From Sphyrna mokarran (taxonomy: Eukaryota), in NCBI GenBank assembly GCA_024679065.1, contig JAGIQG010000010.1:13516001-13580000 (forward strand): DNA of 64,000 nucleotides. Reading direction: 5' to 3'. The position numbers and the translations under genes were made by a program. The notes under the pieces are model-generated. The model did no database searches and was not told the origin of the DNA. It worked only from the letters and a program-made list of their open reading frames with translations. Below are positions 54,628 through 56,919 of this stretch, one piece after another; position 1 is the first letter of the stretch; each line of letters opens with the position of its first letter.

Positions 54628-54739
54628 GTTCTCGAACCCCATGATGTACAGATGCCGGCGTTGGATTGGGGTGGTAAGAACTCAGTAAGAATTTAGCAAC
54701 ACCAATTTATAATCCAACCGATTTATTTGATAGTAAAAA

Positions 54740-54776
54740 AGCGAGCTTTCGACTCTGTGTCTTCCTCAGGCAAATG
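54740..54776 (-). ncRNA. Minimal hammerhead-ribozyme-like motif (left arm)
   Basis: Reverse complement of the right-arm motif, identical core. Confidence 0.55.
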
Positions 54777-54987
54777 CAGTGTTCTGGTCTGCAATAGCAC
54801 ACATCAGCACAGACAGTCAGAGATTGTTGATTAGAATGCGAATCCTTACATCTAACCTGCTATTCAAGTGTTAAAGTGGCTAACAATGTGTGTGAAGGGA
54901 ATCCTGAGCATTGGTTAGAGAATTGGGTATTTTCTCCAGACAGCACAGTAAGTGAGGTTTTTTGCTAACCCAGGCAAGTTACGGGGG

Positions 54988-55818
54988 TTACAGATAGGGT
55001 GTCATGAAGCCAAGATCCCTGTTAAGACCGTCCTCATGTGTGCGGAGCTTGGCTATCAGTCTCTGCTCAGCGACTCTGCGCTGTCGTGTAGCACGAAAGC
55101 CCCCTTGAAGAACATTTACCCGCAGGTCGGAGGCCGAATGCCCATGACTGCTGAAGTGTTCGCCCACAGGAAGGGAACTGTTTTGCCTGGTGATTGTTGA
55201 GCGATGCGCATTCATCCGCTGTCGTAGTGTCTGCATGGTCTCCCCAATGTACCATGCTTCGGGACATCCTTTCTTGCAACGTATTAGGTAGACAACATTG
55301 GCCGAGTTGCAAGAGTATGTACCGTGTACCTGGTGAATGGTATCCTCAAGTTTGATGATGTCGTCCATGTCTATGATCTGGCATGTCTTGCAGAGGTTGC
55401 TGTGGCAGGGTTGTGTGGTATTGTGGTCACTGTTCTCCTGAAGGTTGGGTCGTTTGCTGTGAACAATGATCTGTTTAAGGTTGTGCGGTTGTCTGAAAGC
55501 AAGAAGTGGGGGGGTGGGGATGGCCCTAGTGAGATGTTCATCGTCATCAATGATATGTTGAAGACTCCGGAGATGTCGTAGCTTCTCTGCTCCGGGGAAG
55601 TACTGGACAACAAAGGGTACTCTGTCCACCGTGTCCCGTGTTCATCTTCTGAGGAGATCAGTGCGGTTTATCGTTGTGGCACGTCGGAACTGTCGATCGA
55701 TGAGTCGAGCGCCATATCCTGTTCTCACGAGGGCATCCTTCAGCGTCTGGAGGTGTCTGTCACGATCCTCCTCATCTGAGCAAATTCTGTGTATACGGAG
55801 GGCTTGTCCATAGGGAAT
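54988..55818 (-). pseudogene. 5'-truncated Penelope-like pol fragment (RT C-terminus + GIY-YIG), left arm
   Basis: ORF 54988-55629; upstream in-frame sequence IPYGQALRIHRICSDEEDRDRHLQTLKDALVRTGY has a TGA where the right arm has CGA. Confidence 0.88.
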
Positions 55819-56560
55819 GATGCCCTCGTGTGAACAGGATATGGCGCTCGACTCATCGATTGACAGTTCCGACGTGCCACAACGATAAGCCGCACTGACC
55901 TCCTCAGAAGACGAACACGGTGGACAGAGTACTCTTTGTTGTCCAGTACTTCCCCGGAGCGGAGAAGCTACGACATCTTCTCCGGAGTCTTCAACATATC
56001 ATTGATGATGATGAACATCTCGCTTGGGCCATCCCCACCCCCCCACTTCTTGCTTTCAGACAACTGCACAACCTCAAACAGATCATTGTTCACAGCAAAC
56101 TACCCAACCTTCAGGAGAACAGTGACCACAATACCACACAACCCTGCCACAGCAACCTCTGCAAGACATGCCGGATCAAAGATATGGACGACATCATCAA
56201 ACGTGAGGATACCATTCACCAGGTACACAGTACATACACTTGCAACTCGGCCAACGTTGTCTACCTAATACGTTGCAAGAAAGGATGTCCCGAAGCATGG
56301 TATATTGGGGAGACCATGCAGACACTACGACAGCGGATGAATGAGCATCGCTCAGCAATCACCAGGCAAAACAGTTCCCTTCCTGTGGGCGAACACTTCA
56401 GCAGTCATGGGCATTCGGCCTCCGACCTGCGGGTAAATGTTCTTCAAGGGGCTTTCGTGATACACAGCGCAGAGTCGCTGAGCAGAGACTGATAGCCAAG
56501 CTCCGCACACATGAGGACGGTCTTAACAGGGATCTTGGCTTCATGACACACTATCTGTAA
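55819..56560 (+). pseudogene. 5'-truncated Penelope-like GIY-YIG fragment, right arm
   Basis: ORF 55920-56492, near-identical to the left arm but frameshifted near 56450 (one G lost). Confidence 0.88.
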
Positions 56561-56771
56561 CCCCCGTAACTTGCCTGGGTTAGCAAAAAACCTCACTTAC
56601 TGTGCTGTCTGGAGAAAATACACAATTCTCTAACCAATGCTCAGGATTCCCTTCACACACATTGTTAGCCACTTTAACACTTGAATAGCAGGTTAGATGT
56701 AAGGATTCGCATTCTAATCAGCAATCTCTGACTGTCTGTGCTGATGTGTGCTATTGCAGACCAGAACACTG

Positions 56772-56808
56772 CATTTGCCTGAGGAAGACACAGAGTCGAA
56801 AGCTCGCT
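56772..56808 (+). ncRNA. Minimal hammerhead-ribozyme-like motif in the PLE 3' region (right arm)
   Basis: CTGAGGA-A-GAC(ACAGA)GTC-GAAA-GC-TC; stem I is only about 2 bp. Confidence 0.55.
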
Positions 56809-56919
56809 TTTTTACTATCAAATAAATCGGTTGGATTATAAATTGGTGTTGCTAAATTCTTACTAAGTTCTCGAACCCCAGCCAGAGAATGATGTTGTCT
56901 TCCCCTCCTGTCTGAAGTT

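What the first reader, a model, noticed from the sequence alone, without database searches (positions are those of the whole stretch)
54628..56880. 2.2-kb head-to-head Penelope-like palindrome with a TSD just upstream of ednrb
Seen: two ~1.05-kb near-identical arms (54677-55737 and 55819-56871) face outward around an 81-nt spacer that continues the left copy's pol sequence. Both encode GIY-YIG. The left arm extends ~35 nt further to the element's 3' end, while the right arm stops at GTTCT, which also starts the flanking duplication GTTCTCGAACCCCA. The arms differ by scattered substitutions and small indels (3-nt, 6-nt, a frameshift, CGA>TGA). Known: PLEs are reported to form inverted, truncated copies. 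Inference: a single insertion event, primed on both target strands or by template switch, made both arms, so arm divergence dates it like an LTR pair. It could extrude a cruciform or make ~1-kb dsRNA about 0.7 kb from the putative promoter of a neural-crest pigment and enteric gene.
Basis: partly seen in the sequence, partly recalled or inferred. Interest (0 to 1): 0.7.

Follow-up and report, generated by a model that had tools for sequence, protein, structure and literature searches.

The report
Head-to-head Penelope insertion near ednrb
This 2.2-kb mirror-image stretch is a broken jumping-gene insertion of the Penelope class in a layout already published for that class and common in this genome; it was likely laid down in one event, but its two arms differ at sites that vary across the whole family, so they are probably not a reliable clock, and nothing here shows an effect on the neighbouring ednrb gene.

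Summary
The structure is real: two 5'-truncated copies of an RT + GIY-YIG Penelope-like element with a Neptune-type cysteine linker lie head to head inside a 14-nt target duplication, with a 35-nt tail on one end and a minimal hammerhead motif in each arm. It is ordinary. The layout is published (PMC8557442, PMC3846280), 25 of 39 other best-hit loci share it, and this scan noted it before elsewhere in this genome. One insertion event is well supported; priming on both target strands is inferred. The LTR-style clock is not supported. The arms are no closer to each other than to unrelated copies (ranks 35 and 44 of 54) and differ at four family polymorphisms. Across 25 palindromes, arms never differ at terminal marker sites (0 of 123; shuffled 37%) but differ at chance rate in the endonuclease region (41 of 158; shuffled 26%). 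Later gene conversion or assembly polishing is likelier than mixed RNA templates, but this is unresolved. The ednrb start codon lies 1.45 kb away; no regulatory evidence was found.

The parts
54628..54641 (+). Target-site duplication, left copy (14 nt); its last 2 nt also match the element's continuation
   Evidence: covered by an X1 contig with 0 differences
54642..54676 (-). 35-nt one-sided tail; in longer family copies it ends at the ATG of the ORF
   Evidence: L034, L057, L063, L068 continue into the ORF start
54642..55819 (-). Left, tailed 5'-truncated PLE copy (reference positions 2145-3325 of L046-based coordinates)
   Evidence: 97.5% to L046
54743..54769 (-). Minimal hammerhead motif, left arm (CUGAGGA core, 3-bp stem II, GAAA-GCUC)
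   Evidence: by motif; no Rfam hit; fold not predicted
54988..55820 (-). Remnant ORF: end of RT thumb, cysteine linker, GIY-YIG; stop at 55642-55644
55174..55296 (-). GIY-YIG match, left arm
   Evidence: residues 116-156
55738..55818 (-). Unpaired 81-nt spacer, the extra 5' reach of the left copy
55815..55819 (.). Central junction: 1 nt exact overlap (55819), 4 of 5 nt imperfect microhomology
55819..56871 (+). Right, tail-less 5'-truncated PLE copy with two stops and deletions of 7, 1 and 3 nt
56256..56378 (+). GIY-YIG match, right arm
   Evidence: residues 120-160
56779..56805 (+). Minimal hammerhead motif, right arm
56867..56880 (+). Target-site duplication, right copy; first 5 nt (GTTCT) shared with the element end
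52754..53173 (-). Neighbour: first coding exon of an endothelin receptor B gene, transcribed away from the element

Best explanation
This is a broken insertion of an abundant Neptune-type Penelope-like retrotransposon, two 5'-truncated copies joined head to head inside one 14-nt target duplication, likely made in one event in which each end of a staggered cut primed its own cDNA on RNA from one source lineage. Inferred steps: the GIY-YIG enzyme nicks both strands about 12-14 nt apart. The top-strand end primes at the tail, next to the start codon. The bottom-strand end pairs with GTTCT about 35 nt further in, so that arm lacks the tail. Both cDNAs stop early and are joined through a 1-5-nt microhomology, and fill-in yields the duplication. 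Afterwards the interior of the arms was likely overwritten in patches by sequence from other family copies, either in the animal (ectopic gene conversion) or in the assembly (polishing with misplaced reads), so arm divergence is not a clean clock. The insertion most likely has no function.
For: Shown: RT (E 1.6e-9) and GIY-YIG (E 2.6e-4, just under the Pfam cut-off) in one 905-aa open frame of relative L046. Both target 3' ends run into antisense element sequence. 25 of 39 other best-hit loci are head to head; 24 of these 25 have a one-sided tail and a duplication (median 12 nt over 25 loci including this one). In 11 of 22 simple junctions the tail-less arm reaches further 5' than the tailed arm, so neither arm contains the other; a target-primed cDNA folding back on itself cannot give that. 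In vitro, a PLE protein cleaves and extends both target strands, starts at two sites that bound the tail, and is predicted to be a dimer (PMC11167929). Same source for both arms: 0 of 123 terminal marker cells differ against 37% in shuffled partners, and several pairs share rare terminal variants (L042, L047, L051, L054, L061). Later overwriting: private variants are about twice as dense within 200 nt of a copy's 5' boundary as deeper inside (40/6758 against 53/17792 outside the query region, p 0.0015). Linkage between arms survives on both sides of the scrambled zone (sites 2307 and 2402: 4 of 32 against 27%, p 0.012).
Against: At this locus the tailed arm contains all of the other arm, so geometry alone does not exclude fold-back here. 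A hairpin made before integration and clipped at one end would also fit the 11 junctions. The boundary excess of private variants was not significant in the 23 partner arms that the search did not select (5.3 against 4.6 per kb, p 0.59; CpG decay 6.6% against 3.4%, p 0.02). The loci are the best hits to the right arm, so they are biased to long, little-diverged copies, and marker sites were chosen after seeing the data. PMC11167929 reports initiation at RNA sites not homologous to the cut DNA, whereas here 20 of 25 tail-less ends show 2 nt or more of overlap (mean 3.5, inflated by local-alignment ends). At site 2307 both arms carry near-private changes within 13 nt, so that difference is hard to blame on overwriting. 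No read evidence covers the central junction.
Confidence: 0.55

Rival explanations
1. One template, copied back on itself: either the first cDNA snaps back at GAATG over a 77-nt loop and copies itself, or an antisense RNA self-primes (the model in PMC3846280) and the hairpin is integrated with one end clipped. The arms would be identical at birth.
For: At this locus the tailed arm is longer at both ends and a 4-of-5 pairing exists at the junction. Terminal markers never differ between arms (0 of 123). Three short partner arms in the second sample carry no minor marker allele (L073, L075, L086). PMC3846280 (passages) reads palindromic junctions as self-priming.
Against: In 11 of 22 junctions the tail-less arm is the longer one, which target-primed snap-back cannot give. 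Four differences at recurrent non-CpG sites are unlikely from new mutation alone (p about 0.0005) and need later overwriting.
Confidence: 0.25
2. Mixed templates at insertion: both cDNAs start on the terminal segment of one bound RNA and then jump to different RNA molecules, so arms share the ribozyme-tail end but carry different bodies from birth.
For: Arms differ at 41 of 158 body cells, the same as shuffled partners (26%), but at 0 of 123 terminal cells. The left arm carries a body haplotype (2307T, 2653T, 2718C, 2770A) also seen in copy L063-1365, with a different terminal type. One upstream short repeat (L057) begins right at the predicted ribozyme cut. Stem II differs between arms in about 6 of 24 pairs.
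Against: Discordance does not keep rising with distance: sites 2307 and 2402 stay linked between arms (4 of 32), and 2402A stays linked to 3201A over 800 nt (r2 0.63). Switching does not explain the excess of private changes and CpG decay near copy boundaries. Agreement fades over about 100-350 nt from unique flank, which is the scale of short reads.
Confidence: 0.15
3. Not one insertion: an assembly fold-back, or two independent insertions at one site.
For: No listed X1 piece spans the central junction, and the last 19-nt bin had depth 0 (the tool warns that a hole proves nothing). The arms are no closer than unrelated copies.
Against: One exact 14-mer flanks the pair. The arms differ by 29 substitutions and 4 indels, and the flanks are not mirrored. 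The same layout with its own duplication occurs at 24 other loci. The left junction is in short-read data.
Confidence: 0.03
4. Not exclusive of the others: the element affects ednrb, through the internal promoter expected in its left end (which points towards the gene), through dsRNA, or through methylation spreading.
For: The left arm is co-oriented with ednrb and 1,455 nt from its ATG. Drosophila Penelope has an internal promoter in the equivalent repeat (PMC2377424, passages).
Against: No expression or methylation data support it. The family has thousands of copies (5995 first-look candidates), so landing near some gene is expected. The spacer and mismatches argue against a cruciform (PMC7999016, passages).
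Confidence: 0.07

Closest known systems
Complex insertions of endonuclease-bearing Penelope-like elements: inverted 5'-truncated copy plus one-sided 30-40-bp tail (PMC8557442, Fig. 2 legend and text; passages read)
   Same: Head-to-head inverted 5'-truncated copy, tail at one end only, hammerhead motif in the terminal repeat
   Different: Here both copies are truncated to about 1.1 kb, with no full-length unit or tandem pLTR
Pen2a_Av and Pen2 derivatives of Adineta vaga (PMC3846280; passages read)
   Same: Inverted ends, optional 31-bp tail, 8-10-bp duplication around the whole unit
   Different: Duplication of 14 nt (family median 12); arms include about 0.7 kb of ORF; the tail ends at the start codon instead of lying inside the ORF; the authors favour self-priming on an antisense template
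PAc, Poseidon of Anolis carolinensis (PMC11167929; abstract, results and part of methods read, supplements not seen)
   Same: Two start sites bounding the tail; both target strands cut and extended; hammerhead upstream of the tail
   Different: This family has a Neptune-type cysteine linker; its tail ends at the ATG, not 111-118 nt into the ORF; short overlaps with the target are common here
L1 twin priming (recalled, not from a call)
   Same: Both target strands prime cDNA, and the two products join by microhomology
   Different: L1 gives a non-overlapping 5' inversion from one RNA; here both arms copy the same 3' region, giving a palindrome

Membership tests
EN+ Penelope-like elements | Single ORF with RT followed by C-terminal GIY-YIG | tested here: met
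   L046, 97% identical to both arms, has a 905-aa frame with RVT_1 (E 1.6e-9) then GIY-YIG (E 2.6e-4); the arms keep only the GIY-YIG end
EN+ Penelope-like elements | RT groups with PLE/telomerase RTs in a tree | not tested
   No tree built; a DKG motif is visible in the L046 translation
EN+ Penelope-like elements | Pseudo-LTR from partial tandems | tested here: met
   L034, L057 and L068 carry a short terminal copy directly before the ORF; not present at this locus
EN+ Penelope-like elements | Inverted 5'-truncated copy and one-sided 30-40-bp tail | tested here: met
   This locus (35 nt) and 24 of 25 other palindromes
EN+ Penelope-like elements | Minimal hammerhead motif in the terminal repeat | tested here: met
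   Core, bulge, G-C closing pair and palindromic helix III match the description in PMC4209133 (passages) by eye; Rfam gave no hammerhead hit and the predicted fold was no better than shuffles; cleavage not testable
Neptune/Nematis clades | [quoted passage not shown] | tested here: met
   Cysteine cluster PCHSNLCKTC...YTC/YSC before the GIY-YIG in both arms and L046; read by eye, no reference alignment
Neptune (as against Nematis) | RT phylogeny | not tested
   Neptune is preferred because it is reported in vertebrates (bioRxiv 10.64898/2026.07.22.740005, passages); no tree
Penelope/Poseidon clade | No Zn-finger-like linker | tested here: not met
   The linker cysteines are present
LTR pair usable as a clock | Two repeats identical at insertion that then diverge independently | tested here: not met
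   Arms differ at family polymorphisms and show uneven private changes; identity at birth itself is not testable

The most novel reading that the evidence does not exclude
A PLE dimer primes both target strands on the ribozyme-tail end of one RNA and then each reverse transcriptase jumps to a different RNA molecule. Head-to-head insertions would then record both templates of a single event, with shared ends and recombined bodies, and the many palindromes in this genome would be a natural map of PLE template switching.
Probability: 0.15. Interest if true: 0.65.

Novelty: new member of a known kind. Interest (0 to 1): 0.3.

Why it matters
As a locus it matters little: it is one of many such insertions and no effect on ednrb is shown. 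Two side results are useful. First, junction geometry across the family (11 of 22 cases where neither arm contains the other) fits the in vitro finding that a PLE extends both target strands, and bears on how inverted PLE copies form, which PMC8557442 lists as unexplained. Second, the arms of these palindromes should not be dated like LTR pairs, and divergence measured inside young high-copy repeats of this assembly may be distorted. If the end-shared, body-scrambled pattern survives a long-read check, it becomes evidence on PLE template use.

Tried and rejected
Rfam scan of 54500-57000: only a weak mir-2070 match over the palindrome centre (25.4 bits against a cut-off of 95), rejected as a hairpin effect; no hammerhead family hit. 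Folding of the terminal RNA: z 1.38, -0.18 and 0.85, no support for a stable monomeric ribozyme. Empty-site test: runs X3 and X4 (other organisms) and X2 had no cover on the left flank, so neither an empty site nor read-through RNA could be judged; lack of cover is not evidence. A read-level check of arm alleles and the central junction was not obtained, so that question stays open. Second sample of copies: 12 of 28 loci showed an inverted partner within the 1.5-kb flanks, but only a few had short, fully visible arms, and 2 loci repeat earlier ones; too few to decide whether short palindromes are concordant. One search timed out and was rerun. Literature searches for a published two-end priming or mixed-template account of PLE palindromes (listings only, except the papers cited) gave none beyond PMC11167929 and the self-priming idea of PMC3846280; most subscription papers and the supplements of PMC11167929 were not seen. 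PMC9977147 (passages) added nothing. Polishing papers were seen as a listing only. My first label 'Poseidon' was dropped after checking the linker. Rows left out: L070 and L089 (this locus); L061 (no tail, no duplication); L034, L057, L067 and L068 (complex centres); L041 (arm under 250 nt) in the marker counts; L061 is mislabelled 'tail', so the split is 11 tail-less longer, 8 tailed longer, 2 equal, 1 unassigned. No age in years is given because no substitution rate was available from a call.

Full report
Observation. The palindrome is as described. The arms (54677-55741 and 55815-56871) align with 1025 matches, 29 substitutions and 4 indels, and the 14-mer GTTCTCGAACCCCA occurs only at 54628 and 56867 in the window. 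The 81-nt spacer is extra 5' sequence of the left copy; the junction shares one letter exactly and 4 of 5 imperfectly. Both arms hit GIY-YIG and both are broken by stops; the right arm also has frameshifts. Each arm carries a minimal hammerhead motif (54743-54769 minus, 56779-56805 plus) that matches by eye the description in PMC4209133 (passages); Rfam and folding gave no independent support. A contig of run X1 covers left flank, duplication and tail without differences; the centre was not seen in any listed piece, which the tool says proves nothing.

What it is. The right arm has 5995 first-look candidates in the genome, of which 40 were scored at 95-98% identity. I fetched 39 other loci at 9.9 kb. 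L046 holds a 905-aa frame with RT then GIY-YIG. A cysteine cluster between them fits the Neptune/Nematis linker named in PMC8557442 (passages); no tree was built. In L034, L057, L063 and L068 the tail runs straight into the ORF's ATG. Of the 39 loci, 25 are head-to-head pairs; 24 of those have a tail on one end only and a 7-15-nt duplication, with median 12 over these and this locus. The sample favours long copies, and a pair has two chances to be picked. In a second sample with shorter flanks, 12 of 28 loci showed an inverted partner. The layout is described for PLEs in PMC8557442 and PMC3846280 (passages), and earlier notes of this scan report it in other pieces of this genome.

How it likely formed. 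The sequence shows that each target 3' end runs into antisense element sequence. The tailed end stops at a nearly fixed place beside the start codon (positions 3318-3330). The other end stops at 3240-3298, usually with a short overlap with the target (20 of 25 with 2 nt or more; alignment ends inflate this). In 11 of 22 simple junctions the tail-less arm reaches further 5', in 8 the tailed arm does, 2 are equal and 1 has no tail. In the 11, neither arm contains the other, so a target-primed cDNA cannot have made both by folding back. Priming on both strands explains all cases and fits PMC11167929 (abstract, results, part of methods), where a PLE protein cut and extended both strands from two start sites bounding the tail. 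This step is inferred. At this locus the tailed arm contains the other, and a hairpin made before integration and clipped at one end (compare PMC3846280) is not excluded.

The clock. Over 1037 shared sites the arms differ at 27 and share only one variant, at a CpG; each ranks the other 35th and 44th of 54 copies. Across 26 arm pairs from the family, partners share 39% of variants against 13% for unrelated copies, so this locus is at the far end. Sixteen differences are private (8 per arm), and four fall on non-CpG sites where the left arm's letter is carried by 10, 25, 9 and 19 other copies; four such hits by new mutation alone have p about 0.0005. The right arm's private substitutions all lie in its first 375 nt. 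Across 25 palindromes, marker cells differ between arms at 0 of 123 in the terminal segment (shuffled partners 37%), 23 of 99 at 3038-3101 (32%), 41 of 158 at 2640-2920 (26%) and 4 of 32 at 2307/2402 (27%). Markers were picked after seeing the data, and site 3085, left out as CpG-creating, was included.

Reading this pattern. Shared ends say that both arms come from one source lineage. The scrambled middle has three possible causes. Overwriting after insertion, by ectopic gene conversion or by polishing with misplaced reads, predicts fewer private changes deep inside copies. That is seen: 5.9 against 3.0 per kb outside the query region (p 0.0015), with CpG decay 7.6% against 4.3%; but it is not significant for private changes in 23 unselected partner arms (p 0.59). 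Agreement between arms fades over about 100-350 nt from the outer ends. Template jumping at insertion predicts a steady loss of linkage with distance, yet linkage returns at 2307/2402 and 2402A stays tied to 3201A (r2 0.63). In its favour, site 2307 at this locus sits among near-private changes in both arms, and the short upstream repeat of L057 starts at the predicted ribozyme cut. I could not settle this with reads.

ednrb. The exon at 52754-53173 (minus strand) is most like endothelin receptor B. The element lies 1,455 nt upstream of its ATG. No start site, transcript or methylation data were obtained; lack of X2 cover on the flank is uninformative. With a spacer of about 80 nt and 2.7% mismatch a cruciform is unlikely; PMC7999016 (passages) reports that a 52-bp spacer removes frequent fork stalling at inverted Alus in eukaryotic cells. 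A promoter in the left terminal repeat would point towards the gene (by analogy with PMC2377424, passages), but this is untested.

Verdict. A real, ordinary, broken Neptune-type PLE insertion in a published layout; new member of a known kind; interest 0.3. The one open point worth a follow-up is the family-wide pattern of shared ends and scrambled bodies, which has about a 15% chance of recording mixed RNA templates.

Noticed in passing
L061:1-9223 (G000:C113 near 93,979,400): A head-to-head pair with no tail and no target duplication, whose flanks are also mirrored for at least 4.3 kb at 96% identity: a larger inverted duplication centred on a PLE junction, or an assembly fold-back.
   Followed up: no
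L057:7460-7560 (minus strand): The short upstream repeat before the full-length copy begins right after the predicted hammerhead cut, as if copied from a self-cleaved RNA end; in L068 it begins upstream of the cut.
   Followed up: partly
reference positions 3199-3217 in L031-L069: Hammerhead stem II and loop are hypervariable across the family, with many length variants, while the core letters stay nearly fixed.
   Followed up: partly
L036, L049, L050, L051, L068: Strongly uneven private changes between the two arms of one insertion (1 vs 7, 1 vs 10, 1 vs 7, 1 vs 13, 2 vs 10); partly expected from selecting best hits.
   Followed up: partly
window 53965-54627: Degenerate tandem repeat of about 25-nt units (TGTATCACTG type) between the element and ednrb; the insertion sits at its edge.
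   Followed up: no
window 43112-43416 and 63215-63298: Older terminal fragments related to this PLE family (83% and 75% identity).
   Followed up: no
window 57356-58737: Decayed open frames that look like CR1-type LINE 3' ends (label recalled; no Pfam hit) right of the element, after a run of 25 G at about 56920-56946.
   Followed up: no
L063:1365-5851 and L067:4451-9716: Partial tandem and mixed tandem/inverted arrangements of the same family.
   Followed up: no
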